Counted from the stretch's first letter, positions 11,150 through 32,763 are shown. The stretch is DNA of 43,923 nt from an uncultured Sideroxydans sp. (GCA_964568895.1 CAZMSI010000001.1:1-43923); one strand, 5' to 3'. The notes: a model not told the origin generated them from the letters alone. Program-made: numbers and translations.

Positions 11150-11335
11150 TCATTTGTCGCTATTTTCATATGTCGAAAGATATAAAAGAACCATTATCAC
11201 GACACCCATTCCCATTAATGCGTTATGCAGCCATGCGCTGACTATGCCTGCAAGCACAAGACCGATTACGAATATTGCTGCATTTTTCCAGGTGAATTTG
11301 ATATGCATCATGTCTCCCCAATATTTAAGGAACAA
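11150..11335 (-). CDS. hypothetical small two-helix membrane protein
   Basis: 61-aa ORF with two hydrophobic helices (AAIFVIGLVLAGIVSAWL, GMGVVIMVLLYL). AT-rich. The start could be Met 9 or 10. Weak evidence only. Confidence 0.35.
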   Translation of the reverse strand: MFLKYWGDMMHIKFTWKNAAIFVIGLVLAGIVSAWLHNALMGMGVVIMVLLYLSTYENSDK

Positions 11336-11360: not shown

Positions 11361-11804
11361 TTAGCCGTGTACTACAGAAATTGACTTGAAGGCAGGTGGA
11401 GTCTTGGCCCCGGTCACGTCGGCCAGCGTATATTTGTCCAACTCTGCGAGAAAATTGTTTTTTGCCCCGAACAGCACCCCTTTCAGATTGCAGGCCTTGG
11501 TGATTGCGCAGTTGTCCGTCTCTTTATTGAAGCATTCAAGCAGGTCCAGATCGGGTTCGGTTTTCCTGACCACCTCGCCGATGCCGATTTCGGCGGCAGG
11601 CCGTGCCAGCCTGATTCCCCCGTGCTTGCCTCTGCTGGTCAGGATATATCCGTTAAGTCCAAGCTCGTGCACCACTTTTACCAGGTGATTCCTGGATATT
11701 TTGTAGAAATCGGCCAGTTCGGAAATCGTCACGGTCTTGTCCTTGCTGTATGCAAGATACAGCAGGACGCGAAGCGAATAATCTGTATACAGGGTAAGGC
11801 GCAT
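11361..11804 (-). CDS. nsrR: Rrf2-family transcriptional regulator, NsrR-like (NO-sensing Fe-S repressor)
   Basis: MRLTLYTDYSLRVLLYLA wHTH N-terminus and three clustered Cys (C93, C100, C106) in LECFNKETDNCAITKACNL, giving Cx6Cx5C spacing. Divergent from a globin gene with NsrR-type palindromes between them. The start is Met 45 of the listed ORF. Confidence 0.82.
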   Translation of the reverse strand: MRLTLYTDYSLRVLLYLAYSKDKTVTISELADFYKISRNHLVKVVHELGLNGYILTSRGKHGGIRLARPAAEIGIGEVVRKTEPDLDLLECFNKETDNCAITKACNLKGVLFGAKNNFLAELDKYTLADVTGAKTPPAFKSISVVHG

Positions 11805-11851
11805 CTGAATAAATAAGCTGTTCGTTGTTGACAATATCAGCTGCCCGCAAT

Positions 11852-11874
11852 AAGATGTATTTGAAATGTATCTT
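11852..11874. promoter_or_regulatory. NsrR-type 11-1-11 inverted repeat (box 1, proximal to nsrR)
   Basis: AAGATGTATTT-G-AAATGTATCTT, compared with the E. coli NsrR consensus AAGATGCATTT-N-AAATGCATCTT. Lies 48 nt upstream of the nsrR start. Confidence 0.7.
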
Positions 11875-11907
11875 ACATTGGGCATGCGAAATATTTCAGT
11901 GCTTTCT

Positions 11908-11930
11908 AATATACATTTGAAATGCCATAT
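11908..11930. promoter_or_regulatory. NsrR-type inverted repeat (box 2, proximal to the truncated haemoglobin gene)
   Basis: AATATACATTT-G-AAATGCCATAT has a good left half and a weaker right half. Lies 35 nt upstream of the globin ATG, which has an AAGGAGG RBS. Confidence 0.55.
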
Positions 11931-11964
11931 ATACAATTATCCATGATTATTAAAGGAGGCAACA

Positions 11965-12327
11965 ATGAGTCTTTTCGAGGAGATCGGTGGCGAAGCGGCA
12001 GTAAATGCCGCAGTGGACATTTTTTATCGCAAGGTGCTGCAGGACGACCGTATCAAGCAGTTTTTCGACGGCGTCGACATGGATAAACAGGCTGCCAAGC
12101 AGAAGGCTTTCCTGACCATGGCCTTCGGCGGCCCGAACAACTATACCGGCGAGGACATGAGGAAGGGGCACGCCCATCTTGTGGCCAGGGGCCTGAACGA
12201 TTCGCACTTCGATGCCGTGGTGGAAGATCTCGCTGCGACGCTCAAGGAACTGAATGTCGCGGACAATCTGATCGCTCAGGTTGCAACCATCGCTGAAACC
12301 ACCCGTAACGACGTTCTGGGCAGGTAA
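11965..12327 (+). CDS. glbN: group I (N-type) truncated haemoglobin
   Basis: 120 aa. LFEEIGGEAAVNAAVDIFYRKVLQDDRIKQFF contains the Gly-Gly motif and B10 Tyr, and KGHAHL supplies the proximal His. Collinear with cyanobacterial GlbN and M. tuberculosis HbN. Confidence 0.88.
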   Translation: MSLFEEIGGEAAVNAAVDIFYRKVLQDDRIKQFFDGVDMDKQAAKQKAFLTMAFGGPNNYTGEDMRKGHAHLVARGLNDSHFDAVVEDLAATLKELNVADNLIAQVATIAETTRNDVLGR

Positions 12328-12342
12328 TTTCAGTAATTCTTT

Positions 12343-12381
12343 ATGGCGGGCCGCCTGGTGGCGGCCCGCCATATCTTTTTT
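12343..12381. terminator. rho-independent (bidirectional) terminator between glbN and the convergent HPP gene
   Basis: ATGGCGGGCCGCC-tggt-GGCGGCCCGCCAT, a 13-bp perfect stem, followed by atCTTTTTT. Confidence 0.85.
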
Positions 12382-12408
12382 CCCTGCGCTAACGCAGCGA
12401 GCAACGGC

Positions 12409-12957
12409 TCAAAACCATATTTCCGGGTAGCGGCGCGATTTCGGTATGTTGTTAACCAGCAGCGCGACGACCAGCAGGATGATCGGCCCGACCGTGGCCG
12501 GAAACAGCACATACCAGAATCCCAGGTTATGAATTTTGCCGGAGCCGATTACCGCGATGAGTGCGGTAGCGCCTCCGGGTGGATGCAGCGTGCGCGTGCC
12601 ATGCATGACGGCAATTGCAGTGGCGACGGCCATTGATTCGGCGAGCCACAAGTGCTGGCTCATGAGTTTCCAGCAGAGCACGCCGATTGCCGCCGACAGG
12701 ATATGCCCGCCAAGCAGGTTGCGGGGTTGCGCCAGCGGACTGCGGGGTGCGCCATACAACAGTACGGCGGTAGCGCCAAAGGAACCGATCATCAGCGCAA
12801 TGTCGTGCCCTTCGAAAAACAGGCTGCTGCCCCATGCGACGCCCGCAATTCCCAGGAATGCACCGATCCACGACCACAGGATTTCTGCGTTGCTCACCCG
12901 CGGCGGGCCGCCGCGGGTGGAGCCTTTCATTTTGGAAAAGTACTGGCGCAACCGCAT
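12409..12957 (-). CDS. HPP-family integral membrane protein (family contains nitrite transporters)
   Basis: LIGSFGATAVLLYGAPRSPLAQPRN, GGHILSA and the family signature HPPGGATALI. Start at Met 18 of the listed ORF, with GAGAGG upstream. Lies 7 nt after the CBS gene stop. Confidence 0.82.
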   Translation of the reverse strand: MRLRQYFSKMKGSTRGGPPRVSNAEILWSWIGAFLGIAGVAWGSSLFFEGHDIALMIGSFGATAVLLYGAPRSPLAQPRNLLGGHILSAAIGVLCWKLMSQHLWLAESMAVATAIAVMHGTRTLHPPGGATALIAVIGSGKIHNLGFWYVLFPATVGPIILLVVALLVNNIPKSRRYPEIWF

Positions 12958-12964
12958 AGGCCTC

Positions 12965-13576
12965 TCAAATAAAGGGACGCAAGAAGTCTTTGCGCAGCAG
13001 CAGGCCAAGCAGTCTGCCGTCGGCGCCTGTCACAGGCATGCTGCGGCCTTTGTGGCCGCCGAAAGCTTTCATGACCTCCATGAATTCCGCATCGGGGCCG
13101 ACCGTAACTGCCGGCTGCGTCATGGCTGTGCTTACCGGCATGCCATGGCAATGGTGGGTAAACTCAAACGAATCCTCGGACAACTTCAATGACAATTCCA
13201 GAAAGCTGCCGACCTTGAGACACCTGAGGAAATCGGTTTCCGTCAGCATGCCGATAACGATGCCGCCTGCGTCCACGACCGGAAGCCCCTTGTAGCCAGA
13301 ATTGGCAAGCGTTCTTGCGGCCAGATCGAGCGGCATGTCCGGAGTGAGCGGTTGTTCGATTTTTCGCATGAGGCGGCTGGCCGTCATTCCGCTGAACAGG
13401 CTTTCGACCGCATGACGGCGGGCAAGCTGATAAATGGCCCGAAAGTCCTCGGTCGTGATATCCAGATAACCTGGAATGTGCCGCATCGCATCCAGAATAT
13501 CTTCGTCGCTCAGGTTCAGCTCGGCCAGATCGTTATCTGGCTGGCCTTCCTTGTCGTTGCGAGATTGCTGAGTCAT
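12965..13576 (-). CDS. CBS-pair domain protein
   Basis: Two CBS repeats (MTASRLMRKIEQPLTPDMPLDLAARTLANSGYKGLPVVDAGGIVIGMLTETDFL and VSTAMTQPAVTVGPDAEFMEVMKAFGGHKGRSMPVTGADGRLLGLLLRKDFL). First gene of the CBS-HPP pair. Confidence 0.8.
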   Translation of the reverse strand: MTQQSRNDKEGQPDNDLAELNLSDEDILDAMRHIPGYLDITTEDFRAIYQLARRHAVESLFSGMTASRLMRKIEQPLTPDMPLDLAARTLANSGYKGLPVVDAGGIVIGMLTETDFLRCLKVGSFLELSLKLSEDSFEFTHHCHGMPVSTAMTQPAVTVGPDAEFMEVMKAFGGHKGRSMPVTGADGRLLGLLLRKDFLRPFI

Positions 13577-13585
13577 GATAGTATT

Positions 13586-13608
13586 AAGGTATATTTTAAG
13601 TATATCTT
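13586..13608. promoter_or_regulatory. NsrR-type inverted repeat (box 3) in the CBS-HPP / reductase divergent region
   Basis: AAGGTATATTT-T-AAGTATATCTT; the two half-sites agree at 9 of 11 positions, with the same spacing as boxes 1 and 2. Confidence 0.6.
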
Positions 13609-13694
13609 CTAAGGATATTGTACATTATCATTGGAATCAATACCCGACAAAAATAATAAGGACGGGTTGTTTTTTTGGAGAGAGGTAAGCGCCG

Positions 13695-14663
13695 GTGACC
13701 AAGATCATCTATCAAGGCCAGTCTTTTGACTGCGGGGAAAACGAGTCCGTGCTTGAAGCATTGACGGCGGGCGGGGTGGCGGTGCCTTCCTCCTGCAAGG
13801 CAGGTATCTGCCAGACCTGCCTGATGCGGGTAATCAAGGGGGAGGTCCCGGAAGAATCCCGCAAAGGCCTGAAGCCGACGCTTGCGGCACAGGGATATTT
13901 CCTGGCCTGCTCCTGTCACCCCGGCGCAGACATCGAGGTAGCGTTGCCGGAGCACGGGGCCGGCAGGTTGTCGGCCAGGGTGCTTGGCGTCGAACCGCTG
14001 AATGCCGACATTGCCAGCGTCAAACTCGCGCCGGCACGTCCTCTGGAATACCAGGCTGGCCAGTTCATCAATTTCTTCAAGGATGAAATGACCGCACGCA
14101 GTTTTTCCCTGGCCAGCGTGCCGGGGCTCGACGATGACCTCGAACTCCATGTGCGCAGGATTCCCGGCGGGGAAGTCAGCCCATGGATACACGGCCTGTC
14201 TGCAGGCGACGTTGTCGACATCTCGGAGGCAGCCGGCGATTGTTTCTATTTGCCCGGCAACCCGGATCAGGGTTTACTGCTGATCGGGACCGGATCGGGG
14301 CTGGCGCCGCTTTACGGCATCGTCAAGGATGCCCTGCTTCAGGGGCATACGGGCCCGATCAGGTTGTACCACGGCAGTCTGAATGTGGCTGGTCTTTATC
14401 TGGTCGACGAGTTGAGGGAAATTGCAGCAGCCCACCCGAATTTTTCCTATGCGCCATGCGTATCCGAGGAGGAGGCACCCGATGGGGTCAGGGACGGGAT
14501 CGTGCTTGATGTTGCGCTGGACGATGTTCCCGATCTATCGGGCTGGCGCGTCTACCTGTGCGGGAATCCGGCAATGGTGAATGCCGCGAAAACAAAAACC
14601 TTCCTCGCGGGTGCTTCGATGCAGAATATTTACGCCGATCCTTTCCTGCCCGCAAATACCTGA
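13695..14663 (+). CDS. 2Fe-2S ferredoxin / FAD / NAD(P)H oxidoreductase (FNR-like reductase with N-terminal plant-type ferredoxin domain)
   Basis: Cluster ligands SSCKAGICQTC...LACSC, FAD motif RSFSLAS, NAD(P)H motif LLIGTGSGLAP. GTG start with GGAGAGAGG upstream. Confidence 0.85.
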   Translation: MTKIIYQGQSFDCGENESVLEALTAGGVAVPSSCKAGICQTCLMRVIKGEVPEESRKGLKPTLAAQGYFLACSCHPGADIEVALPEHGAGRLSARVLGVEPLNADIASVKLAPARPLEYQAGQFINFFKDEMTARSFSLASVPGLDDDLELHVRRIPGGEVSPWIHGLSAGDVVDISEAAGDCFYLPGNPDQGLLLIGTGSGLAPLYGIVKDALLQGHTGPIRLYHGSLNVAGLYLVDELREIAAAHPNFSYAPCVSEEEAPDGVRDGIVLDVALDDVPDLSGWRVYLCGNPAMVNAAKTKTFLAGASMQNIYADPFLPANT

Positions 14664-14686: not shown

Positions 14687-15754
14687 CTATGGCTGGTTGA
14701 GTCTGCGCAGCAGCCAGTCGGCAGCCTGTGCCGTGCCTTCCGGCTGCATCCGTTCCGGTTGCGACGTGTTCCAGAGGCCGGTCAGTTCGTCGGCGATGTT
14801 TCCGCGTTCCAGCGCATTGCGCGAAACTTCGCGGCACACGCCGTGCTGCTGCAGCCACTCGACCAGCGCGGGCGATTCCGGCCAGTCGGCGCGGCTGGCA
14901 AACAGCACCGGCGTGCCACAGCAGGCAGCTTCGACGAAGCTGCCATAGCCCGGTTTGCACAGCAGCGCATCGCAGCTTGCCAGCAGGTCGCTGAAATCCA
15001 GCGGCAGCGATTCGAGCGTGATGGCATCGGGGCGTTGCACCTGCCAGCTTGCCTGCACCAGCCAGCGCACCCCGGCGATGCGCGGCCAGCGTTCGATGGG
15101 CAGGCGGCTGGCGATACCGCCCAGACTTACCAGTACCAGTTTTTCTTCCTGCGACAGGCGCAACAAGCGGTTCAGTTCGTCGCGCCGGTTGTCGCCGATG
15201 TCGGCAAGCGGCGCAATCGGCACCAGGTTGGGCAGGTCGCGCATCGCCATACCTGGCGTGGCGCGCAGAAAAACATCAGCCCTGGCGTAGCAGTCATGTA
15301 TCTGTGCCGCGATGTCGTCTGCGCCAAGGTAATGGCGGTAGATGTCCGCCCAGTTCAGCGAACACAGCGCGGCATTGGCAATGTCCGCGCGCTGTGCGGC
15401 GGCTAGCGGCAGGTAACCGACATTCGAGAGCACCATGTCCGCGCCGAGTTCGCGCAGCAGAGCGGCTTCCTGTTCTACGCGCGTCTCCCAGTTGGTGTGG
15501 AATGCGCGATAGGCTGTGCGGCTTTTTTCGACCTGAACGTCGATTGCCGAAGACATCGCCATGCCGATGTCGCCCTCGTTTGGCAGGTGATCGAACGGCA
15601 CCCGGATGCGTGAATGCAGGTGGGCGGCCGGCACGCTGCTACGCACGATAAGGCGCAATTCCGGCATGCGCTGGTGCAGCAGGTTCAGGATGGGCGCGGT
15701 CTGCGCCACATGGCCAAAACCGTGGCCGGTGATGGAAACGACGAGGCGGGGCAT
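14687..15754 (-). CDS. GT-B fold glycosyltransferase-like protein (uncharacterised family)
   Basis: The N-terminal ITGHGFGHVAQ motif resembles the glycosyltransferase-like domain found N-terminal to plant arabinose kinases. The C-terminal half has a LCKPGYGSFVEA nucleotide-sugar-type motif. No donor or acceptor can be inferred. Confidence 0.6.
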   Translation of the reverse strand: MPRLVVSITGHGFGHVAQTAPILNLLHQRMPELRLIVRSSVPAAHLHSRIRVPFDHLPNEGDIGMAMSSAIDVQVEKSRTAYRAFHTNWETRVEQEAALLRELGADMVLSNVGYLPLAAAQRADIANAALCSLNWADIYRHYLGADDIAAQIHDCYARADVFLRATPGMAMRDLPNLVPIAPLADIGDNRRDELNRLLRLSQEEKLVLVSLGGIASRLPIERWPRIAGVRWLVQASWQVQRPDAITLESLPLDFSDLLASCDALLCKPGYGSFVEAACCGTPVLFASRADWPESPALVEWLQQHGVCREVSRNALERGNIADELTGLWNTSQPERMQPEGTAQAADWLLRRLNQP

Positions 15755-25179: not shown

Positions 25180-25653
25180 ATGAGATTGACAACTAAAGGA
25201 CGTTTTGCGGTAACGGCGATGGTCGATTTGGCGATGCGTGGCGGGCACGGCCCGGTAACGCTGGCAGGTATCAGCGAGCGCCAGAAAATTTCGCTGTCCT
25301 ATCTGGAGCAACTATTCGGCAAGCTGCGCCGTAACAATATCGTGGCCAGCGTGCGCGGCCCAGGCGGCGGTTATTGCCTGTCGCGTCCGGCAGCGCAGAT
25401 TGCCATTTCCGAGATTATCCTGGCGGTGGACGAGCCGCTGGATGCGACCAAGTGCGGCGGCGCAGGCAACTGTTTCGACGACCAGCCGTGCATCACCCAC
25501 GAGCTGTGGATGGGTCTGACCAAGACTATCTACGACTACCTGGCCGATATCAGCCTGCAACAGATGGTGGATGCGCAGCAGAAGGACAAGCCGGAAACAA
25601 CCAAGATCAGCATGACCAGCAAGCCGGCTGGCGCCGAAGCGATCGCGAACTGA
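25180..25653 (+). CDS. iscR: Fe-S cluster assembly transcriptional regulator IscR (Rrf2 family)
   Basis: [33 protein letters not shown] and cluster-ligand cysteines in [22 protein letters not shown]. First gene of the isc operon. Confidence 0.93.
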
Positions 25654-25678
25654 ACCCATCGGAAATGGACTAAGAATT

Positions 25679-26893
25679 ATGACTCTGCGTTTACCGATAT
25701 ACATGGACTATTCGGCCACCACGCCGGTCGATCCGCGCGTGGCCGAGGCGATGATTCCCTACCTGTGCGAGAAATTCGGCAATCCTGCTTCGCGTTCCCA
25801 TGCCTTTGGCTGGGAGGCGGAAAAGGCGGTGGAGCAGGCCCGCGAGCAGGTGGCGAAACTGGTCAACGCCGACCCCAAGGAGATCGTCTGGACTTCCGGT
25901 GCGACTGAATCCAATAATCTGGCACTGAAAGGCGCGGCGCATTTTTACAAGGGCAAGGGCAAGCACATCGTCACGGTGATGACCGAGCACAAGGCCGTGC
26001 TGGATACCGTGCGGGAACTGGAGCGCCAGGGTTTTTCCGCCACTTACCTTGATCCCGAGCCGAACGGCCTGATCGATCTGGAGAAGTTCAAGGCGGCGTT
26101 GCGCCCGGATACCATCCTGGCCTCGGTGATGCACGTCAACAACGAGATTGGTGTGATTCAGGACATTGCTGCAATCGGCGAGATCTGCCGCGAGCGCGGG
26201 ATCGTGTTTCATGTGGATTCAGCGCAGTCGGCAGGCAAGGTGGAGATCGACTTGCAGAAACTCAAGGTCGATCTGATGTCGTTCTCCGCGCACAAGATCT
26301 ACGGCCCCAAAGGCATCGGCGCATTGTACGTGCGGCGCAAGCCGCGGGTGCGGCTGGAAGCGCAGATGCACGGCGGCGGGCACGAGCGCGGCATGCGTTC
26401 CGGCACGCTGCCGACCCACCAGATCGTCGGTATGGGTGCGGCATTCGACATCGCGCGCCAGGAAATGGCGGCCGAGAACGAGCGCATTCGCATGCTGCGC
26501 GACCGTTTGTGGCAGGGGCTGTCCGGCATGGAAGAGGTTTATGTCAACGGCGACAAGGAACAACGTGTGCCGCACAACCTGAATATCAGTTTCAATTTTG
26601 TCGAAGGCGAATCGCTGATCATGGCGATCAGCGATGTGGCGGTATCCAGCGGATCGGCCTGCACTTCGGCCAGCCTGGAGCCGTCCTACGTGCTGCGTGC
26701 ACTTGGGCGCAGCGACGAACTGGCGCACAGCTCTATCCGTTTTACCGTCGGGCGTTTTACCACGGTGGAGGAAGTTGACTACGTGATCGAGCTGCTGAAG
26801 CACAAGATCGGCAAGCTGCGTGACCTGTCGCCGCTGTGGGAAATGTACAAGGATGGGGTGGATATCAACGCCATCGAGTGGGCGGCACATTAG
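25679..26893 (+). CDS. iscS: cysteine desulfurase IscS
   Basis: [18 protein letters not shown] lysine [12 protein letters not shown], active-site SSGSACTS. 404 aa. Confidence 0.97.
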
Positions 26894-26974
26894 CGAATCG
26901 CCTGTGCCCGTCTGGCGGTGTTGTCGGCCGGATAAATCATCGATTCGCTGGAATGAGATTTAAGGAGTAATAAA

Positions 26975-27391
26975 ATGGCATATAGCGAAAAAGTACTGGA
27001 GCATTACGAGAATCCGCGCAACGTCGGTTCCATGGACAAGGACGATGCGCATGTCGGTACCGGCATGGTCGGCGCGCCGGCCTGCGGCGACGTGATGAAG
27101 CTGCAGATCAAGGTGAACGAAGCTGGTGTGATCGAGGATGCGAAGTTCAAGACCTATGGTTGCGGTTCGGCCATCGCCTCGAGTTCGCTGGTGACCGAGT
27201 GGGTCAAGGGCAAGACGCTGGACGAGGCACTGGGGATCAAGAACACGCAGATTGCCGAGGAACTGGCGCTGCCGCCGGTGAAGATCCACTGCTCGATCCT
27301 GGCCGAAGATGCGATCAAGGCGGCGGTGGCCGATCTCAAGGGCAAGCGCGAAGCCGACGTGGCGGCGTGCAACGCAAACAAGGCTGCCTGA
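26975..27391 (+). CDS. iscU: Fe-S cluster assembly scaffold IscU
   Basis: [40 protein letters not shown] and [15 protein letters not shown]. Confidence 0.97.
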
Positions 27392-27395
27392 AGCA

Positions 27396-27719
27396 ATGGC
27401 GATTACCCTGAGTGAAAATGCGGCAAAGCATGTGCAGAATTTCCTGACCAGGCGCGGCAAGGGCGTGGGCCTGCGTCTCGGTGTGCGCACCAGCGGTTGT
27501 TCCGGCATGGCCTACAAGCTGGAATTTGCCGACGAGGTGAGCGAAGACGACCTGCAGTTCGAGAGTCACGGCGTCACGGTGCTGGTCGATCGGCAGAGCC
27601 TGCCCTACATTGATGGCATGGAGCTGGACTTCACGCGCGAGGGATTGAACGAGGGATTCAAGTTCAACAACCCCAACGTCAAGAACGAGTGCGGTTGCGG
27701 TGAAAGTTTCTCGGTCTGA
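27396..27719 (+). CDS. iscA: iron-binding A-type carrier IscA
   Basis: [13 protein letters not shown]..., [10 protein letters not shown] and C-terminal CGCGESF. Start at Met 30 of the listed ORF. Confidence 0.95.
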
Positions 27720-28261
27720 TGCAGCCGGCTGTGTTCGACTTCCAGCAGAATTTTTTTCAGCTGTTCGGTCTGAGCACGCGTTACCGGATCGACAGCGCAC
27801 AGCTTGAGCAGCATTACCGCACCTTGCAGTCCCAGGTTCATCCGGACAAGTTCAGCCATCTCTCGGAAGTCGAGCGCCGGGTTTCGATGCAGTGGGCCAC
27901 CCGTGTCAACGAAGCCTACCAGACATTGAATAATCCGGTGCGGCGCGCACGCTACCTGCTGTTGCTGCACGACGTGGACACCCAGGAAGAGACCAACACC
28001 GCGATGCCGGCGGATTTTCTGGTACAGCAGATGGAGTGGCGCGAGGCGATCGAGGAAGCGCTGCAGGCGCGCGACGAGGATGCGCTGACCGAACTGGAAA
28101 CGCGGTTGCAGCGCGAGATGCATGAACTCGAGCACCAGCTTGCAGTTGAAATCGACGACGAGCAGCAATATGCTGCAGCGGCCGAAGCTGTACGCAAACT
28201 GAAATTCCTGGAAAAGCTTGCGGAAGAAATTCATTCCGCTTTTGATACCATTGATTATTGA
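27719..28261 (+). CDS. hscB: Fe-S co-chaperone HscB (J-protein)
   Basis: NFFQLFGL...LQSQVHPDKF J-domain. ATG overlaps the iscA TGA. Confidence 0.93.
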   Translation: MQPAVFDFQQNFFQLFGLSTRYRIDSAQLEQHYRTLQSQVHPDKFSHLSEVERRVSMQWATRVNEAYQTLNNPVRRARYLLLLHDVDTQEETNTAMPADFLVQQMEWREAIEEALQARDEDALTELETRLQREMHELEHQLAVEIDDEQQYAAAAEAVRKLKFLEKLAEEIHSAFDTIDY

Positions 28262-28275
28262 TTGAGTTCTGAACC

Positions 28276-30144
28276 GTGGCTTTACTGCAAATCTCCGAAC
28301 CTGGCCTGAGTACCGCCCCGCATGAACACCGGCTGGCAGTTGGCATCGACCTCGGTACTACCAACTCGCTGGTGGCAACCGTGCGTAACGGCATCAGTGT
28401 GGTGCTGAATGACGAACATGGCCGCACGCTGCTGCCGTCTGTGGTGCGTTATCTGCCGGACGGCGAGGTACACGTCGGTGTGAGTGCACAGCAGGAACAG
28501 AGCAAGGATCCTTCCAATACCATCGTTTCGGTCAAGCGCTTCATGGGGCGCGGCCTGGCCGACATCGACGACGCCACCAGTTTCCCTTACCGCTTTGTGG
28601 ATGCGCCGGGTATGGTGCAGTTGCGCACCGTGGCCGGGGTAAAGAGTCCGGTGGAGGTATCAGCGGAAGTGCTCAAGGCCTTGCGCAGCCGGGCCGAAGA
28701 TGCACTGGGTGGCGAACTGGTCGGCGCGGTGATCACGGTGCCCGCCTATTTCGACGATGCGCAGCGCCAGGCCACCAAGGATGCGGCAAAGCTGGCCGGA
28801 CTCAACGTGCTGCGCCTGCTCAACGAACCGACCGCCGCCGCCATTGCCTATGGCCTGGATAATGCCGCCGAAGGCGTGTATGCGGTGTACGACCTGGGGG
28901 GCGGTACGTTCGACATTTCCATCCTGCGGCTGTCGCGCGGCGTGTTCGAGGTGCTTGCCACCAATGGTGATTCTGCGCTGGGCGGCGACGACTTCGATCA
29001 GCGTCTGTATTGCTGGCTGCTGGAGAAGAATAACCTTTCCGCGCTGGATGCGCGGGATACCCGCTTGCTGCTGACCCGCTCACGAGCGGCCAAGGAAGAG
29101 CTCACCGAATATACACAGACGCGCATTACCGTTGTGCTTGGTAACGGCGAGGTAATCGACAATACGCTGGAACAGCAGGAATACCACGACATGACGCAGA
29201 ACCTGGTTGCGCGCACGCTGCAGCCGATGCGCCGCGCCCTGCGCGATGCCGGGCTGAAGTCGGAAGACGTCAAGGGCGTAGTGATGGTGGGCGGTGCCAC
29301 GCGCATGCCGCAGGTGCAGCACGCAGTGGCGGAATTCTTCAAGCAGGCGCCGCTGACCAACCTCGATCCGGACAAGGTGGTGGCATTGGGTGCGGCGATG
29401 CAGGCCAACGTACTGGCTGGCAACCGCGGCGAAGACGACTGGCTGCTGCTCGACGTGATTCCGCTCAGCCTCGGCATCGAAACCATGGGTGGCCTTTCCG
29501 AGAAGATCGTGCCGCGCAACAGCACCATACCGACTGCGCGGGCGCAGGAATTTACCACTTTCAAGGACGGTCAGACCGCAATGAGCATCCATGTGGTACA
29601 GGGCGAGCGTGAGCTGATTTCAGATTGCCGCTCGCTGGCCAAGTTCGAGCTGCGCGGCATTCCGCCGATGGTGGCAGGAGCGGCGCGCATCCGCGTCACC
29701 TTCCAGGTTGATGCGGACGGCCTGCTGAACGTCTCGGCACGCGAGATGAGCAGCGGCGTCGAAGCACACGTCACGGTCAAGCCTTCTTACGGCCTGAGCG
29801 ATGAGGAAGTCACGCGCATGCTGCAGGATTCCTATAGCCATGCGCAGGACGACATGTCGGCGCGCAGCCTGGCCGAAGCCAGGGTGGAAGGACAGCGTCT
29901 GCTGGAAGGTACGCACGCTGCTTTGCAGGAAGACGGCACCGTGCTGCTGCAGCCGCAGGAAGTACAGGCCATTGAGCAGCTCATGGAAAAACTGCAGCAG
30001 ATGCTGGCGGGAGACGATCTGCCAGCCATTCGCCGCGCTACCGATGCGCTGAACCAGGGTACGACAGAATTTGCTTCGCGCCGCATGGACTGCAGCGTGC
30101 GCAAGGCGCTCACCGGTCACCGCCTGGACGAACTGGAGACATGA
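28276..30144 (+). CDS. hscA: Fe-S chaperone HscA (Hsp70 family)
   Basis: [10 protein letters not shown]...[26 protein letters not shown] and [11 protein letters not shown] start. Confidence 0.97.
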
Positions 30145-30932
30145 TGCCGGGCCATGATGCCGCGGTAATGGATGCCGGGTTCATCGACGGGCTGCGTGCG
30201 CGCCTCGACCACCATCCGCTCTACGAATCGCTGCACACTGTCGAGGACCTGCGCGTGTTCATGATGCACCATGTGCATTCGGTGTGGGACTTCATGTCAC
30301 TGATCAAGTATCTGCAGCACGCGGTGGCGCCGGCGCGCTGGCCGTGGCAGCCTGGCGCCGATCCCACAGTGCAGCGCTTCATCAACGAACTGGTGCTGGA
30401 AGAGGAAACCGACGAGGCGGGTCCTGCGCATCCCGGCGAATTTGTCAGCCATTTCCAGTTGTACCTGGGCGCGATGCGTGAAATCGGTGCTGATGCCGAT
30501 ACGCCGCAGCGCTTCGTTGAGCTTGCTGTGCGTGAGGGCATAACCGCCGCACTGGCTTCCGGCCTGGTGCCGGAACCGGCTTTGCGCTTTACCCGGACCA
30601 CGTTCGATTTCATCGGCAGCGACCGGCCGCATGTGGTGGCAGCGGTGCTGGCGCTGGGACGCGAGCACGTGATCCCGGCCATGTTCCGCGCCTTGCTGGC
30701 GCGTATGGGTGTCGGCGAACAGCAGGCACCGACTTTCCATTATTATCTGAAGCGTCACATCCATCTGGACGAGGATTTTCATGCGCCGCTGTCGCTGCGC
30801 CTGCTGCATGGATTGTGCGCTGGCGATCCAGCGCGCATTGCCGAAGCGCATGCTGCCGCCGAGCAGGCAGTCGCCGCGCGCGTTGCTTTCTGGGATGGCA
30901 TACTTGCCGTCCTGCCCAGTCAACAGAACTAA
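30141..30932 (+). CDS. DUF3050-like protein (haem-oxygenase-like helical fold) embedded in the isc operon
   Basis: [35 protein letters not shown]...WPWQP...[14 protein letters not shown]...[16 protein letters not shown] matches my recollection of the DUF3050 signature. ATG overlaps the hscA TGA, and fdx follows 12 nt later. Confidence 0.7.
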
Positions 30933-30944
30933 AGTGAAAAAATC

Positions 30945-31277
30945 ATGCCCCAACTGATCGTGCTGCCTCATGAAGAACTCTGCCCACAGGGTGCGGTGCT
31001 GCAGGTAGAATCCGGCACCAGCATTTGTGATGCACTACTGAACAATGGCATCGAGATCGAGCATGCCTGCGAAAAATCCTGCGCCTGCACCACCTGTCAC
31101 GTAATCCTGCGCGAAGGCTTCGACAGCCTGGCCGAGGCAGAAGAGATTGAGGAAGACCTGCTGGACAAGGCCTGGGGGCTGGAACCGACCTCGCGCCTGA
31201 GTTGCCAGGCACTGGTCGATGGCAGCGACCTGGTGATAGAAATTCCCAAGTACACCATCAACATGGTGAAGGAGTGA
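30945..31277 (+). CDS. fdx: ISC-type [2Fe-2S] ferredoxin
   Basis: IEHACEKSCACTTCHVI...RLSCQ with adrenodoxin-type cysteine spacing. 110 aa. Confidence 0.95.
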   Translation: MPQLIVLPHEELCPQGAVLQVESGTSICDALLNNGIEIEHACEKSCACTTCHVILREGFDSLAEAEEIEEDLLDKAWGLEPTSRLSCQALVDGSDLVIEIPKYTINMVKE

Positions 31278-31281
31278 CGAG

Positions 31282-31476
31282 ATGAAATGGACTGATGTGC
31301 ACCAGATTGCCATCGCGCTGACCGACGCCTATCCTGATACCGACCCGCGCTATATCCGCTTTACCGACCTGCACGAGTGGGTGATGGGGCTGGACGGCTT
31401 CACCGACGATCCCAACCGCAGCAGCGAGAAAATTCTCGAAGGTATCCAGATGGCCTGGATCGACGAGGCCGAATGA
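31282..31476 (+). CDS. iscX: Fe-S assembly protein IscX (YfhJ)
   Basis: MKWTDVHQIAIALTDAYPDTDPRYIRFTDLHEWV, 64 aa and acidic. Confidence 0.92.
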   Translation: MKWTDVHQIAIALTDAYPDTDPRYIRFTDLHEWVMGLDGFTDDPNRSSEKILEGIQMAWIDEAE

Positions 31477-31985
31477 TGCTCAAGTGCTGTGCCAATGTTT
31501 CCAGTCGCTGGCTGTACCTGGCCGGTGCGCTAATCGTGGCCGCGCTGTTCGGCGCCGCGCTGTACCTGGAATATGTGTTGCGTCAGGACCCGTGCCCGTT
31601 GTGCATGGTGCAGAGAGTGATTTTCATCGTGATCGGCGTACTGTTCTTCATTGCCATGCTGCACAACCCGAAGCGCACCGGCAGCAAGGTATATGCCGTG
31701 CTGATCGGTCTGTTCGCGCTGTTCGGCGTGGGCGTGGCCAGTCGCCATATCTGGATACAGCACCTGCCCGCGGACAAGGTTCCGGCCTGCGGCCCGGGGC
31801 TGGATTACATGCTGCAGAACTTCCCCATGGCCGACGTGCTGAAGGAACTGATGCACGGCTCCGGCGAATGCGCGGCCAAGGGCTGGACCTTCCTCACTCT
31901 CGGCATTCCCGAATGGTCGCTGATCTGGTACCTCCTGCTCGGCATCTGGGCGGTGCTGATCGCACTTAAAGCACGCAACAATTAA
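31473..31985 (+). CDS. dsbB: disulfide bond formation protein DsbB
   Basis: Four TM helices. First periplasmic pair is DPCPLC; the second loop holds cysteines in VPACGPG and GECAAKGW. ATG overlaps the iscX TGA (gaATGATG). Confidence 0.88.
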   Translation: MMLKCCANVSSRWLYLAGALIVAALFGAALYLEYVLRQDPCPLCMVQRVIFIVIGVLFFIAMLHNPKRTGSKVYAVLIGLFALFGVGVASRHIWIQHLPADKVPACGPGLDYMLQNFPMADVLKELMHGSGECAAKGWTFLTLGIPEWSLIWYLLLGIWAVLIALKARNN

Positions 31986-32037: not shown

Positions 32038-32060
32038 ATGATTTATTTTTAATACATCAT
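32038..32060. promoter_or_regulatory. NsrR-type inverted repeat (box 4) upstream of the second HPP-family gene
   Basis: ATGATTTATTT-T-TAATACATCAT. Each half matches AAGATGTATTT at 9 of 11 positions. Lies 17 nt upstream of ATG 32077. Confidence 0.5.
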
Positions 32061-32076: not shown

Positions 32077-32763
32077 ATGAATTTCCAGGACTTTCTTGCA
32101 TCGTTCAAACCGGGTTTTGATCCCGTTCCCATCAACGAAAAAATACGCAGCGGCGTTGCGGCATTTATGGGCATGCTGCTGCTTGGGTTTGCACTACATC
32201 TATTGCCGGGAACCGCGGGCTATCATCTGGCCGTTCTCGCTTCGATGGCTGCAGCGGCTGTATTGTTGTATGCGGTGCCGCACAGCCCGATGACCCAGCC
32301 ATGGCCGTTGGTATGCGGCAATCTGGTCTCCGGCCTGATCGGCTGGATCTGCAGCCTATGGATCCCCGACCCGGTTCTGGCCGCGGCCTGCGCCGTCGGA
32401 GCTGCGGTGCTGGCCATGCACCTGCTGAACTGCCTGCATCCGCCGGGCGGTGCGACGGCAATGATCATGGTGCTGGGTGCAGAGCAATTCCATCAGCACG
32501 GCTGGGAATGGCTAGCCGCCACAGTAATCGCCAATACGTTGCTGTCGCTGCTGCTGGCACTGGTTATTAACAACCTGTTGCCGGGCAGGCGCTATCCTTC
32601 GCATCGCACAACTGTGCAGCCGATGTCGCAAGGCGGAAAGTTGGATGCAATGGACATCAAGTGGGCGCTATCGCAAATGGATGGAGTGATCGACGTCAGC
32701 GAGGAAGATTTGCTGGAAATTTACCGATTGGCCTCCGGGCGCGTCAGGATGCGCACCCCATGA
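32077..32763 (+). CDS. HPP-family integral membrane protein (paralog) with a short cytoplasmic C-terminal tail
   Basis: LASMAAAAVLLYAVPHSPMTQPWP and CLHPPGGATAMIMV signatures. The C-terminal 40 aa resemble the N-terminus of the CBS protein at 12965-13576. Confidence 0.82.
   Translation: MNFQDFLASFKPGFDPVPINEKIRSGVAAFMGMLLLGFALHLLPGTAGYHLAVLASMAAAAVLLYAVPHSPMTQPWPLVCGNLVSGLIGWICSLWIPDPVLAAACAVGAAVLAMHLLNCLHPPGGATAMIMVLGAEQFHQHGWEWLAATVIANTLLSLLLALVINNLLPGRRYPSHRTTVQPMSQGGKLDAMDIKWALSQMDGVIDVSEEDLLEIYRLASGRVRMRTP

What the first reader, a model, noticed from the sequence alone, without database searches (positions are those of the whole stretch)
11852..13608. Three NsrR-type 11-1-11 palindromes tie together nsrR, a truncated haemoglobin, a CBS-HPP operon and a ferredoxin-reductase gene
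Three 23-bp sites read directly from the sequence share the same architecture: AAGATGTATTTGAAATGTATCTT (11852), AATATACATTTGAAATGCCATAT (11908) and AAGGTATATTTTAAGTATATCTT (13586). All lie in the only two divergent promoter regions of this cluster. All resemble the enterobacterial NsrR operator (AAGATGCATTT-N-AAATGCATCTT). The adjacent regulator is Rrf2-type with three clustered cysteines. This defines a compact candidate NO-responsive regulon whose members (trHbN, CBS, HPP, Fdx-FNR reductase) are not the classical hmp/ytfE/hcp set.
Basis: partly seen in the sequence, partly recalled or inferred. Interest (0 to 1): 0.62.

Follow-up and report, generated by a model that had tools for sequence, protein, structure and literature searches.

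The report
NsrR operators controlling haemoglobin and HPP genes
An uncultured salt-marsh iron-oxidiser relative carries a nitric-oxide-type repressor (NsrR) whose DNA binding sites sit in front of a small haemoglobin, its reductase and two putative nitrite-channel genes. The haemoglobin-reductase part was already predicted in 2005; the channel genes appear to be new members of the regulon.

Summary
All four 23-bp sites exist at the stated coordinates. A weight matrix built only from 27 orthologous sites in related genomes (window excluded) ranks exactly these four sites top in the 44-kb window: S1 32.1, S4 24.7, S3 23.4 and S2 12.7 bits, next best 8.0. About 0.04 hits of S3/S4 strength are expected by chance in all AT-rich DNA of the window.

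S1 overlaps the -10 of a TTGACA-17-TAAGAT glbN promoter and is conserved in every relative. S2 is weak as a palindrome, but its left half is conserved, and the closest relatives have a full site there. The regulator matches NsrR best: three Cys plus Asp8, and the best PDB hit is ScNsrR. A separate IscR lies elsewhere in the window.

In about 30 related loci from three phyla, glbN and the Fdx-FNR reductase form one operon next to nsrR. Here a CBS-HPP cassette with its own operator (S3) splits that operon. An NsrR-type site upstream of HPP2 recurs in three of four more distant orthologous loci.

NsrR control of a glbN-ferredoxin-reductase operon was predicted for Legionella in 2005, so the core is known. 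NsrR control of HPP/CBS genes appears undescribed. Verdict: a real feature and a new member of a known kind.

The parts
11361..11804 (-). nsrR: 147-aa Rrf2-family repressor, NsrR-type
   Evidence: Pfam Rrf2 120.6 bits. The best NCBIfam model is NsrR NF008240 at 142.7 bits (below its 182 cutoff), against RirA 113 and IscR 45. The best PDB hit is S. coelicolor NsrR 5n07, with the three Cys and Asp8 aligned. Homologues 70-81% identical are named 'Rrf2 family nitric oxide-sensitive transcriptional repressor' by JGI.
11828..11856 (+). glbN promoter, TTGACA-17-TAAGAT
   Evidence: Promoter scan gives 10/12. The -35 TTGACA and the TAAGAT/TAACAT -10 are conserved in 27 related loci.
11852..11874 (.). 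S1: main NsrR operator, overlapping the -10 and predicted start site of glbN and lying 48 nt upstream of the nsrR ATG
   Evidence: 32.1 bits with the window-independent PWM. 13/14 to gATGyAT-N5-ATrCATc. An orthologous site is present in all 27 aligned relatives. Differs at 3 positions over the 22 nt reported for the A. baumannii NsrR-like binding sequence upstream of a gene shown to be NsrR-regulated.
11908..11930 (.). S2: secondary operator in the glbN leader. The left half AATATACATTT is good; the right half is degenerate.
   Evidence: 12.7 bits with genomic background and 4.4 bits with AT-rich background; about 1.9 such hits are expected by chance. A half-site AATATACATyy in the same orientation lies 26-42 nt after S1 in 17 of 28 loci. 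The closest relatives have full sites there, at 20.6 and 27.7 bits.
11965..12327 (+). glbN: 120-aa group 1 truncated haemoglobin
   Evidence: Pfam Bac_globin 67.8 bits. Best PDB hits are cyanoglobin at 2.5e-37 and group 1 trHbs, with the proximal His, Tyr B10 and Gln E7/E11 aligned. Transcript contigs are present in salt-marsh metatranscriptomes.
12342..12373 (.). Intrinsic terminator between the convergent glbN and HPP genes
   Evidence: 14-bp stem with 11 GC pairs and a T-run. It is absent in relatives, where glbN and the reductase gene are 12-30 nt apart.
12409..12957 (-). HPP-family membrane protein (182 aa), second gene of the CBS-HPP operon
   Evidence: Pfam TM_HPP 201.8 bits. The CBS-HPP pair is conserved in relatives.
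12965..13576 (-). CBS-pair protein (203 aa), first gene of the CBS-HPP operon
   Evidence: Pfam CBS with two stretches. 1049 homologues at E<=1e-10; wherever context was examined an HPP gene follows.
13586..13608 (.). S3: NsrR-type operator in the CBS<->reductase divergent region, 10 nt from the CBS ATG and 87 nt from the reductase GTG
   Evidence: 23.4 bits; expected by chance 0.044 per 5.1 kb of AT-rich DNA. Retained in loci with 93-94% identical CBS. All three substitutions inside the site fall on degenerate motif positions, while the flanks carry substitutions and indels.
13695..14663 (+). Three-domain 2Fe-2S ferredoxin / FAD / NAD(P)H reductase (322 aa), inferred electron donor of GlbN
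   Evidence: Pfam Fer2 + FAD_binding_6 + NAD_binding_1. Best NCBIfam hit is 'iron-sulfur-binding ferredoxin reductase'. Best PDB hit is 5ogx, a cytochrome P450 reductase, at 1.3e-55. Its orthologue directly follows glbN in about 30 related loci.
32038..32060 (.). S4: NsrR-type operator 17 nt upstream of the HPP2 start codon
   Evidence: 24.7 bits and 13/14 to the published core. Orthologous dsbB-HPP2 intergenic regions carry the best site of their locus in L100 (19.7 bits), L102 (22.8 bits) and L090 (15.9 bits). The site is degraded in L105.
32077..32763 (+). HPP2: second HPP-family protein (228 aa). Its C-terminal tail resembles the N-terminus of the CBS protein.
   Evidence: 35% identical to the HPP protein, and the tail matches CBS residues 26-52. 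The precomputed Pfam domain of homologues is PF04982. dsbB-HPP2 synteny is conserved.

Best explanation
This is an NsrR regulon.

The repressor. The Rrf2 protein at 11361-11804 is an NsrR-type repressor. By homology it is a dimer holding a [4Fe-4S] cluster on Cys91/99/105 plus Asp8 of the partner subunit. It binds 23-bp 11-1-11 palindromes of the type AAGATryATyy-N-rrATryATCTT.

Control of glbN. S1 covers the -10 hexamer and the predicted start site of the glbN promoter. S2 lies about 45 nt into the leader and adds a second, weaker contact. Bound repressor therefore blocks glbN transcription, and probably that of divergent nsrR.

Induction (inferred). Nitrosylation of the cluster by NO, or by nitrite-derived NO, would release the repressor. 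GlbN would then oxidise NO to nitrate, and the three-domain ferredoxin/FAD/NAD(P)H reductase would re-reduce its haem. The pair would act as a split equivalent of flavohaemoglobin Hmp.

The derived layout. In related genomes glbN and the reductase gene are one operon. In this lineage a cassette has been inserted between them. The cassette comprises a terminator, the CBS-HPP operon in reverse orientation, and a 118-bp promoter region. That region carries S3, which keeps the CBS-HPP operon, and plausibly the now separate reductase gene, under the same repressor.

The HPP genes. A second HPP gene 18 kb away has its own operator, S4. The HPP proteins belong to a family with shown nitrite transport in cyanobacteria and chloroplasts. 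They are inferred to move nitrite or nitrate across the membrane during nitrosative stress, with the CBS protein as a regulatory partner.

Shown here: the sites, their significance, their conservation, their promoter overlap, the gene families and the operon history. Inferred: binding by this protein, NO as the signal, NO dioxygenase activity, and the transport substrate.
For: Sites and statistics.

S1:
- It overlaps TTGACA-17-TAAGAT.
- Promoter and operator are conserved in 27 relatives.

S2:
- The half-site is conserved in 17 of 28 loci.
- A full site sits at the same position in the closest relatives.

S3: conserved in close relatives, with changes only at degenerate positions.

S4: conserved at HPP2 orthologues in other genera.

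Regulator identity. A separate IscR in the same window reaches 207 bits against a 207.55-bit cutoff on the IscR model, while the regulator here scores 45 on it.

The nsrR/glbN/reductase linkage:
- Found in Gallionellaceae, Myxococcaceae, Polyangiaceae and Acidobacteria.
- High-scoring sites lie upstream of glbN in the two Myxococcaceae loci and the Polyangiaceae locus; no site of 16 bits or more was found in the Acidobacteria locus.

Literature:
- Published consensus and the 23-bp architecture.
- An NsrR-like binding sequence that differs from S1 at 3 of 22 positions lies upstream of a gene experimentally shown to be NsrR-repressed in A. baumannii.
- Prior prediction of the glbN-reductase NsrR operon.
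- HPP as a nitrite-transporter family.

Expression: glbN is expressed in situ.
Against: - No binding, induction or transcription-start data exist for this organism.
- The regulator scores below the curated NsrR equivalog cutoff (142.7 against 182 bits), and RirA is a fairly close second at 113 bits.
- No consensus promoter was found in the CBS/reductase region or upstream of HPP2 (and reading by eye). How S3 acts on the reductase gene, 87 nt away, is therefore uncertain.
- S3 has mismatches at two otherwise near-invariant positions (4 and 15).
- CBS-HPP operons in four more distant relatives have no such site upstream.
- S2 is not significant on its own score.
- Some related genomes encode two roughly 70% identical NsrR paralogues. 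Which paralogue would bind which site cannot be told.
Confidence: 0.8

Rival explanations
1. Only S1 is a functional operator. S2, S3 and S4 are chance AT-rich quasi-palindromes in promoter DNA, and the regulon is just glbN (plus nsrR).
For: - The intergenic regions are AT-rich (37-43% GC).
- S2 scores at a level expected about 1.9 times by chance.
- S3 has 4 of 14 mismatches to the published core.
- More distant CBS-HPP loci lack a site.
Against: - Hits of S3/S4 strength are expected 0.044 times in all AT-rich DNA of the window, even with a null trained on these regions.
- No hit of 23 bits or more occurs outside nsrR-proximal regions in 872 kb of related loci.
- S4-type sites recur upstream of HPP2 orthologues in three of four more distant loci, each time as the best hit of the locus.
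- S3 substitutions in relatives avoid the informative positions.
- S2 is a full high-scoring site in the closest relatives.
Confidence: 0.07
2. The sites are real operators of this Rrf2 protein, but the physiological signal is not NO. The candidates are nitrite itself (as first described for Nitrosomonas europaea NsrR), iron or Fe-S status (RirA-like), or redox state. On this reading the regulon serves nitrite handling rather than NO detoxification.
For: - RirA is the second-best model at 113 bits, and the NsrR cutoff is not reached.
- NsrR was first described as nitrite-sensitive in N. europaea (cited).
- Two targets are HPP proteins, a family linked to nitrite transport.
- A paralogue in relatives sits next to a multicopper-oxidase / cytochrome c / NirK-like cluster.
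Against: - The operator matches the NsrR motif, not iron-box motifs.
- The cluster ligands match the NO-sensing ScNsrR structure.
- The most conserved target is a group 1 truncated haemoglobin with its reductase, the functional counterpart of Hmp.
- Studied NsrR proteins respond to NO through the cluster.
Confidence: 0.1
3. S3 controls only the CBS-HPP operon. The reductase gene is expressed from an independent, unregulated promoter, so GlbN and its reductase are no longer co-regulated in this lineage.
For: - S3 is 10 nt from the CBS start but 87 nt from the reductase start.
- The best candidate reductase promoter read by eye (TTGGAA-17-TAATAA, 13632-13660) lies wholly downstream of S3.
- The tool found no consensus promoter there.
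Against: - The 118-bp region is shared by both genes.
- Co-regulation of glbN and the reductase gene is the ancestral state in about 30 loci.
- The whole region, including S3, is conserved in lineages that have the insertion.
Confidence: 0.25

Closest known systems
NsrR-controlled glbN-lpg2536 operon of Legionella pneumophila (cyanoglobin plus ferredoxin reductase), predicted by Rodionov et al. 2005, PLoS Comput Biol 1:e55
   Same: An NsrR-type repressor, a gATGyAT-N5-ATrCATc palindrome, and a group 1 truncated haemoglobin paired with a ferredoxin-type reductase, proposed to oxidise NO like Hmp. About 30 related loci here show the same operon next to nsrR.
   Different: In the window, a 1.37-kb CBS-HPP cassette with its own operator splits the two genes into separate transcription units. 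The organism is a Gallionellaceae-like betaproteobacterium from salt marsh. The regulon also includes HPP genes.
Classical NsrR regulons: E. coli/Salmonella hmp-ytfE-hcp, S. coelicolor hmpA1/hmpA2/nsrR, B. subtilis hmp, A. baumannii haemoglobin RS01970
   Same: The 23-bp 11-1-11 operator architecture, operators that overlap promoters, tandem or half sites, likely autoregulation, and a small regulon centred on an NO-detoxifying globin. S1 differs from the A. baumannii NsrR-like binding sequence at 3 of 22 positions.
   Different: The globin is a two-on-two truncated haemoglobin with a separate three-domain reductase, not a flavohaemoglobin. No hmp, ytfE or hcp gene lies in the window.
Nitrosomonas europaea NsrR with the ncgABC-nirK cluster (Beaumont et al. 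2004, as cited)
   Same: Same order-level lineage (Nitrosomonadales). Relatives of the window organism carry a paralogue about 70% identical to the window's NsrR. It is divergent from a multicopper oxidase / cytochrome c / NirK-like cluster and has the same motif upstream.
   Different: The window's copy is the glbN-linked paralogue. No nirK lies in the window.
NsrR control of nitrite/nitrate transporters (narK-like nasA in Chromobacterium violaceum; tehB) and the HPP-family nitrite transporter of cyanobacteria and chloroplasts (Maeda et al. 2014)
   Same: The logic of placing a nitrite or nitrate exporter under the nitrosative-stress repressor. HPP is a four-helix membrane family with shown nitrite transport.
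   Different: The transporter family here is HPP, not MFS. In one case it pairs with a separately encoded CBS protein rather than being fused to it. No paper in the searched library mentions both NsrR and HPP.

Membership tests
NsrR (Rrf2-family NO-sensing repressor) | Rrf2 winged-helix domain | tested here: met
   PF02082 at 120.6 bits over residues 5-131; TIGR00738 at 116 bits, above its cutoff.
NsrR (Rrf2-family NO-sensing repressor) | Three C-terminal Cys cluster ligands plus Asp8, as in the ScNsrR structure | tested here: met
   C91, C99 and C105 are the only cysteines. They and D8 align with C93/C99/C105 and D8 of 5n07. The ligand roles are taken from the literature, not tested.
NsrR (Rrf2-family NO-sensing repressor) | Scores as NsrR rather than another Rrf2 subfamily | tested here: inconclusive
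   NsrR NF008240 is the best model (142.7 bits) but falls below its curated cutoff of 182. RirA scores 113 and IscR 45. The window's true IscR scores 207 on the IscR model, just below its 207.55-bit cutoff. JGI names close homologues NO-sensitive repressor. No phylogenetic tree was built.
NsrR (Rrf2-family NO-sensing repressor) | [4Fe-4S] cluster and NO-sensitive DNA binding | not testable with these tools
   Needs purified protein.
NsrR operator (gATGyAT-N5-ATrCATc, 11-1-11) | Match to the published consensus | tested here: met
   S1 13/14, S4 13/14, S3 10/14 and S2 9/14. The top four PWM hits of the window are these sites.
NsrR operator (gATGyAT-N5-ATrCATc, 11-1-11) | Overlap with core promoter elements of the target gene | tested here: met
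   Met for S1, which overlaps the TAAGAT -10 of TTGACA-17-TAAGAT. Inconclusive for S3 and S4, where no consensus promoter was found.
NsrR operator (gATGyAT-N5-ATrCATc, 11-1-11) | Conservation at orthologous promoters | tested here: met
   S1 is conserved in 27 of 27 loci. The S2 half-site is conserved in 17 of 28 loci, with full sites in the closest relatives. S3 is conserved only in relatives with 93-94% identical CBS. S4-type sites occur in 3 of 4 more distant orthologous loci.
NsrR-controlled glbN-ferredoxin-reductase operon (Legionella type) | glbN and the reductase gene adjacent in one transcription unit | tested here: not met
   In the window they are 1367 bp apart. A terminator and an oppositely oriented CBS-HPP operon lie between them. 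The feature is met in about 30 related loci.
Group 1 truncated haemoglobin (trHbN/GlbN) | Two-on-two globin with proximal His F8, Tyr B10 and Gln E7/E11 | tested here: met
   PF01152. Cyanoglobin and group 1 trHb structures match at E 1e-37 to 1e-34, with these residues aligned. E10 is Lys rather than the His of Synechocystis GlbN (residue names are from my own knowledge).
Group 1 truncated haemoglobin (trHbN/GlbN) | NO dioxygenase activity supported by the neighbouring reductase | not testable with these tools
   Needs an enzyme assay.
HPP family (PF04982), putative nitrite transporter | TM_HPP domain | tested here: met
   201.8 bits over the full profile for HPP. HPP2 is 35% identical to it, and HPP2 homologues carry PF04982.
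HPP family (PF04982), putative nitrite transporter | Nitrite (or other anion) transport | not testable with these tools
   Known only for cyanobacterial and plastid members.
Three-domain Fdx-FNR reductases (BenC/MmoC/GcoB class) | N-terminal plant-type 2Fe-2S domain, then FAD and NAD(P)H domains | tested here: met
   Fer2, FAD_binding_6 and NAD_binding_1 in that order. Best PDB hit is 5ogx, a P450 reductase, at 1.3e-55.

The most novel reading that the evidence does not exclude
In Gallionellaceae-type bacteria, HPP-family proteins (one partnered with a separately encoded CBS protein, one with only a short CBS-linker tail) are NO-stress-inducible nitrite or nitrate channels. Together with GlbN and its dedicated reductase they would form a complete NsrR-controlled module: sense NO, oxidise it to nitrate, export the product. 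This would be the first regulatory evidence for the function of HPP proteins outside phototrophs. It would also name a defined physiological reductase for a group 1 truncated haemoglobin.
Probability: 0.3. Interest if true: 0.6.

Novelty: new member of a known kind. Interest (0 to 1): 0.4.

Why it matters
The regulator, its operator type and the haemoglobin-reductase target are already in the literature as comparative-genomic predictions, so the core adds a further lineage rather than a new principle. Three points are useful.

1. The nsrR/glbN/reductase linkage across three phyla gives a well-defined candidate for the physiological reductase of group 1 truncated haemoglobins. That partner is still unidentified in the best-studied organisms. 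Here it could be tested with two small soluble proteins.

2. HPP genes are conserved NsrR targets. This gives a concrete, testable functional hypothesis for a widespread membrane family of largely unknown function in non-phototrophic bacteria.

3. The split operon shows a regulon being kept intact after a gene insertion, because the inserted cassette carries its own operator.

Tried and rejected
- Is the CBS/reductase intergenic region a duplicate of the nsrR/glbN region? Local alignments against 28 such regions do not exceed shuffled controls. Only the operator itself aligns. Rejected.
- Do CBS-HPP operons elsewhere carry NsrR sites? Four independent loci with 62-69% identical CBS have no credible site directly upstream. 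The link is specific to this lineage. One of them (L083) has a 25-bit site 1.7 kb upstream, between dsrC-like and marR genes; its meaning is unclear.
- Consensus promoter search in the CBS/reductase region found none at the tool's threshold. Candidates read by eye are weak and ambiguous.
- A hairpin plus T-run just upstream of the reductase ribosome-binding site folds no better than shuffles in the window (z -0.05) and only marginally better in a relative (z -1.3). Not pursued.
- Target-site duplication at the cassette borders: none seen.
- The metagenome scan for HPP2 relatives returned only five loci. More orthologues were reached through the protein database and contig look-ups.
- Metatranscriptomes held only short contigs over glbN. 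No start-site or induction information could be extracted, and nothing was found for the other genes.
- The source genome itself is not among the reference genomes. The best NsrR match there is 74%, so no whole-genome motif scan was possible.
Full report
THE OBSERVATION

- S1, 11852-11874, AAGATGTATTTGAAATGTATCTT
- S2, 11908-11930, AATATACATTTGAAATGCCATAT
- S3, 13586-13608, AAGGTATATTTTAAGTATATCTT
- S4, 32038-32060, ATGATTTATTTTTAATACATCAT

Arm complementarity is 9/11, 6/11, 9/11 and 9/11. Mismatches to the published NsrR core gATGyAT-N5-ATrCATc are 1, 5, 4 and 1 of 14.

The gene map is as described:

| Gene | Coordinates | Strand |
|---|---|---|
| nsrR-like Rrf2 gene | 11361-11804 | - |
| truncated haemoglobin (glbN) | 11965-12327 | + |
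| HPP | 12409-12957 | - |
| CBS | 12965-13576 | - |
| ferredoxin/FAD/NAD reductase | 13695-14663 | + |

S1 and S2 lie in the first divergent region and S3 in the second. S4 lies 17 nt upstream of a second HPP gene, HPP2 (32077-32763).

IS IT MORE THAN CHANCE?

With the enterobacterial consensus, the four sites and one further weak match (11289-11311) are the five best matches in the window.

To avoid circularity I built a weight matrix from the 27 orthologous S1-type sites of other genomes, leaving the window out.
- Scanned over the window, it ranks S1 (32.1 bits), S4 (24.7), S3 (23.4) and S2 (12.7) first. The next best hit scores 8.0.
- Among 58 AT-rich segments totalling 5.1 kb, only the three site-bearing regions score high.
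- A Markov-1 null trained on those same regions expects 0.044 hits of S3/S4 strength per 5.1 kb, but about 1.9 hits of S2 strength.
- In 872 kb of related loci, hits of 16 bits or more are almost all within 1 kb upstream of nsrR. About five lie elsewhere, and none of those reaches 23 bits.

S1, S3 and S4 are therefore significant individually. S2 is not significant on score alone.

THE REGULATOR

- It is an Rrf2 protein (PF02082).
- Its best NCBIfam model is NsrR at 142.7 bits. That is below the curated equivalog cutoff of 182, which no relative tested reaches either. RirA scores 113 and IscR 45.
- Its best solved relative is S. coelicolor NsrR. The three cluster cysteines and Asp8 align, at C91, C99, C105 and D8 here.
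- JGI names homologues 70-81% identical 'Rrf2 family nitric oxide-sensitive transcriptional repressor'.
- The window also holds a genuine IscR (25180-25653) at the head of an isc operon. It scores 207 bits on the IscR model, just below the 207.55-bit cutoff. The regulator studied here is therefore not the housekeeping Rrf2 protein.

COMPARATIVE GENOMICS

The source organism is uncultured. The same contig occurs in salt-marsh and marine-sediment metagenomes, and the nearest reference genomes are Gallionellaceae/Nitrosomonadales MAGs with 68-74% identical NsrR.

In 26 such loci, nsrR is divergent from glbN, and the reductase gene directly follows glbN at a 12-30 nt gap. The closest relatives found (NsrR 81% identical) have the same arrangement.

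The three genes are also linked in Myxococcaceae, Polyangiaceae and an acidobacterial MAG. High-scoring sites lie upstream of glbN in the two Myxococcaceae loci and the Polyangiaceae locus; no site of 16 bits or more was found in the acidobacterial locus. In total, about 30 of the 80 loci retrieved carry the trio.

The window therefore has a derived layout. A segment of about 1.37 kb sits between glbN and its reductase gene. It comprises a strong terminator (12342-12373), the CBS-HPP operon in reverse orientation, and a 118-bp promoter region with S3.

The same derived layout is present in metagenome contigs whose CBS protein is 93-94% identical. There, the three substitutions inside S3 fall on the degenerate positions of the motif (11, 12 and 21), while the flanks carry substitutions and an indel.

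PROMOTER ANATOMY

The tool finds TTGACA-17-TAAGAT at 11828-11856 (10/12). The -10 hexamer overlaps the first five bases of S1. Both the -35 and the -10/operator block are conserved in all 27 aligned relatives. The predicted start site falls inside S1, a standard arrangement for repression.

Because the operator ends in AAGAT/ATCTT flanked by T/A, a -10-like TAAGAT also exists on the nsrR strand. It pairs with a weak -35 (CTGAAA, 8/12 in total). Autoregulation from an overlapping divergent promoter is therefore plausible but only inferred.

S2 lies about 45 nt into the glbN leader.
- Its left half (AATATACATTT) is orthologous to a half-site AATATACATyy found in the same orientation 26-42 nt after S1 in 17 of 28 loci.
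- In the closest relatives the equivalent position holds a full palindrome of 20.6 and 27.7 bits.

For S3 and S4, no consensus promoter reaches the tool's threshold. S3 is 10 nt from the CBS start codon, so it lies at or just downstream of any CBS promoter. It is 87 nt from the reductase start, so its effect on that gene is uncertain.

THE HPP GENES

HPP and HPP2 are paralogues (35% identity). The C-terminal tail of HPP2 resembles the N-terminal segment of the CBS protein. This suggests the two loci are split versions of the fused HPP-CBS architecture that JGI labels 'CBS domain-containing membrane protein'.

HPP2 is syntenic downstream of the isc operon and dsbB in relatives. The dsbB-HPP2 spacer carries the best PWM hit of the whole locus in these cases:

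| Locus | Source | HPP2 identity | Score (bits) | Site start relative to start codon |
|---|---|---|---|---|
| L100 | Sideroxydans MAG | 74% | 19.7 | -39 |
| L102 | Gallionella MAG | 66% | 22.8 | -91 |
| L090 | metagenome contig | 53% | 15.9 | -51 |
| L105 | Gallionellaceae MAG | 58% | 3.5 | -39 (degraded; half-site only) |

HPP2 is therefore a conserved member of this regulon.

The CBS-HPP operon, by contrast, lies in unrelated contexts in four more distant relatives and has no site directly upstream there. Its recruitment is specific to this lineage.

WHAT IS ALREADY KNOWN

- Rodionov et al. (2005) defined the NsrR motif. They predicted that in Legionella pneumophila the glbN-lpg2536 operon (cyanoglobin plus ferredoxin reductase) is the sole NsrR target and acts like Hmp.
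- Gardner's 2012 review repeats this as evidence that FNR-like proteins reduce truncated haemoglobins.
- In A. baumannii, a NsrR-like binding sequence that differs from S1 at 3 of its 22 positions lies upstream of a haemoglobin gene shown by qRT-PCR to be derepressed about 10,000-fold in the nsrR mutant.
- The 23-bp 11-1-11 architecture is established by footprinting for ScNsrR.
- Rodionov et al. also noted NsrR control of narK-like nitrite transporters.
- HPP proteins have shown nitrite transport in cyanobacteria and plastids.
- No paper in the searched library mentions both NsrR and HPP.

MECHANISM PROPOSED

Cluster-loaded NsrR binds S1 (with S2), S3 and S4 and represses glbN, CBS-HPP, HPP2, and probably nsrR and the reductase gene. 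NO destroys or nitrosylates the cluster and releases the repressor.

GlbN then converts NO and O2 to nitrate. GlbN has Tyr B10, Gln E7/E11 and the proximal His, with Lys rather than His at E10. The reductase re-reduces its haem; the reductase's closest solved relative donates electrons to a haem P450.

The HPP proteins are proposed to move nitrite or nitrate. The steps after DNA-site recognition are inferred from homology.

glbN-like transcripts are present in salt-marsh and rhizosphere metatranscriptomes. One contig begins at 11887, inside the predicted leader. This shows expression in situ but says nothing about regulation.

VERDICT

- The haemoglobin-reductase pair is the known, conserved core of such regulons, not a departure from them.
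- The window's arrangement is a split operon.
- S2 is a weak auxiliary site.
- Control of the reductase by S3 is not established.

The new element is HPP (and CBS) genes as NsrR targets, conserved across genera in the case of HPP2.

Novelty: a new member of a known kind. Interest: moderate.

Noticed in passing
L001, L003, L008, L009, L013, L016, L017, L019, L024, L026 and others: glbN 5' leader, between the S2-type half-site and the ribosome-binding site (alignment): Most relatives have a conserved GC-rich stem-loop in the glbN leader, of the form GCCGGAAnnTTCCGGC. Sequence changes between loci keep the pairing. The window and its closest relatives lack it. Its function is unknown; it could be an mRNA-stability or attenuation element.
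   Followed up: no
window 11289-11311: A fifth, weak NsrR-like match, CAGGTGAATTTGATATGCATCAT (17/22 to the enterobacterial consensus; 8.0 bits with the lineage PWM). It overlaps the start of a 61-aa predicted membrane ORF (11150-11335, minus strand) just downstream of nsrR. The ORF has no tblastn match in the 80 related loci.
   Followed up: partly
window 25180-31277: A complete isc cluster headed by a second Rrf2 regulator, IscR (25180-25653; 207 bits on TIGR02010). It continues with IscS, scaffold genes, HscA (28276-30144) and a 2Fe-2S ferredoxin (30945-31277), followed by dsbB (31377-31985) and HPP2. The dsbB-HPP2 synteny is conserved in relatives.
   Followed up: partly
L011 2466-5605, L015 2364-5578, L035 2414-5625 (upstream of nsrR paralogues): Some Gallionellaceae MAGs carry a second NsrR about 70% identical to the window's. 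It is divergent from a multicopper oxidase / cytochrome c / second two-domain copper protein cluster, which recalls the ncgABC-nirK cluster of Nitrosomonas europaea. The same motif lies upstream at 25-31 bits. Two MAGs hold both paralogues.
   Followed up: partly
L083 2320-2342 (and L084 1233-1255): A 25.2-bit NsrR-type site, AAAATATATGTTAAATATATCAT, lies between a dsrC-like gene and a marR-family gene. It is 1.7 kb upstream of that genome's CBS-HPP operon, on the same strand as marR, a glyoxalase-like gene, CBS and HPP.
   Followed up: no
L097 3032-3487, L098 1776-2231, L099 108-563: In the closest relatives, a 151-aa hemerythrin-domain gene lies immediately beyond the glbN-reductase operon on the opposite strand. 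No NsrR-type site was found upstream of it.
   Followed up: partly
window 32640-32763 versus 13420-13510 (HPP2 residues 193-219 versus CBS protein residues 26-52): The C-terminal tail of HPP2 resembles the N-terminal segment of the separately encoded CBS protein (41% identity over 27 residues, pairwise E 6e-4). Both loci look like different splits of a fused HPP-linker-CBS protein. In the CBS-HPP operon the gene order is permuted relative to the fusion.
   Followed up: partly
window 13641-13676: A short hairpin followed by a T-run lies just upstream of the reductase ribosome-binding site on the coding strand. The stem is better in L095 (6 bp) than in the window (4 bp). Neither folds significantly better than shuffled sequence (z -0.05 and -1.3).
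   Followed up: yes
window 14687-15754: A 355-aa ORF convergent with the reductase gene has no Pfam hit and only a weak match to the MJ1255/VC2487 glycosyltransferase subfamily (21 bits against a cutoff of 196). It is conserved next to the reductase gene in metagenome contig L081.
   Followed up: no
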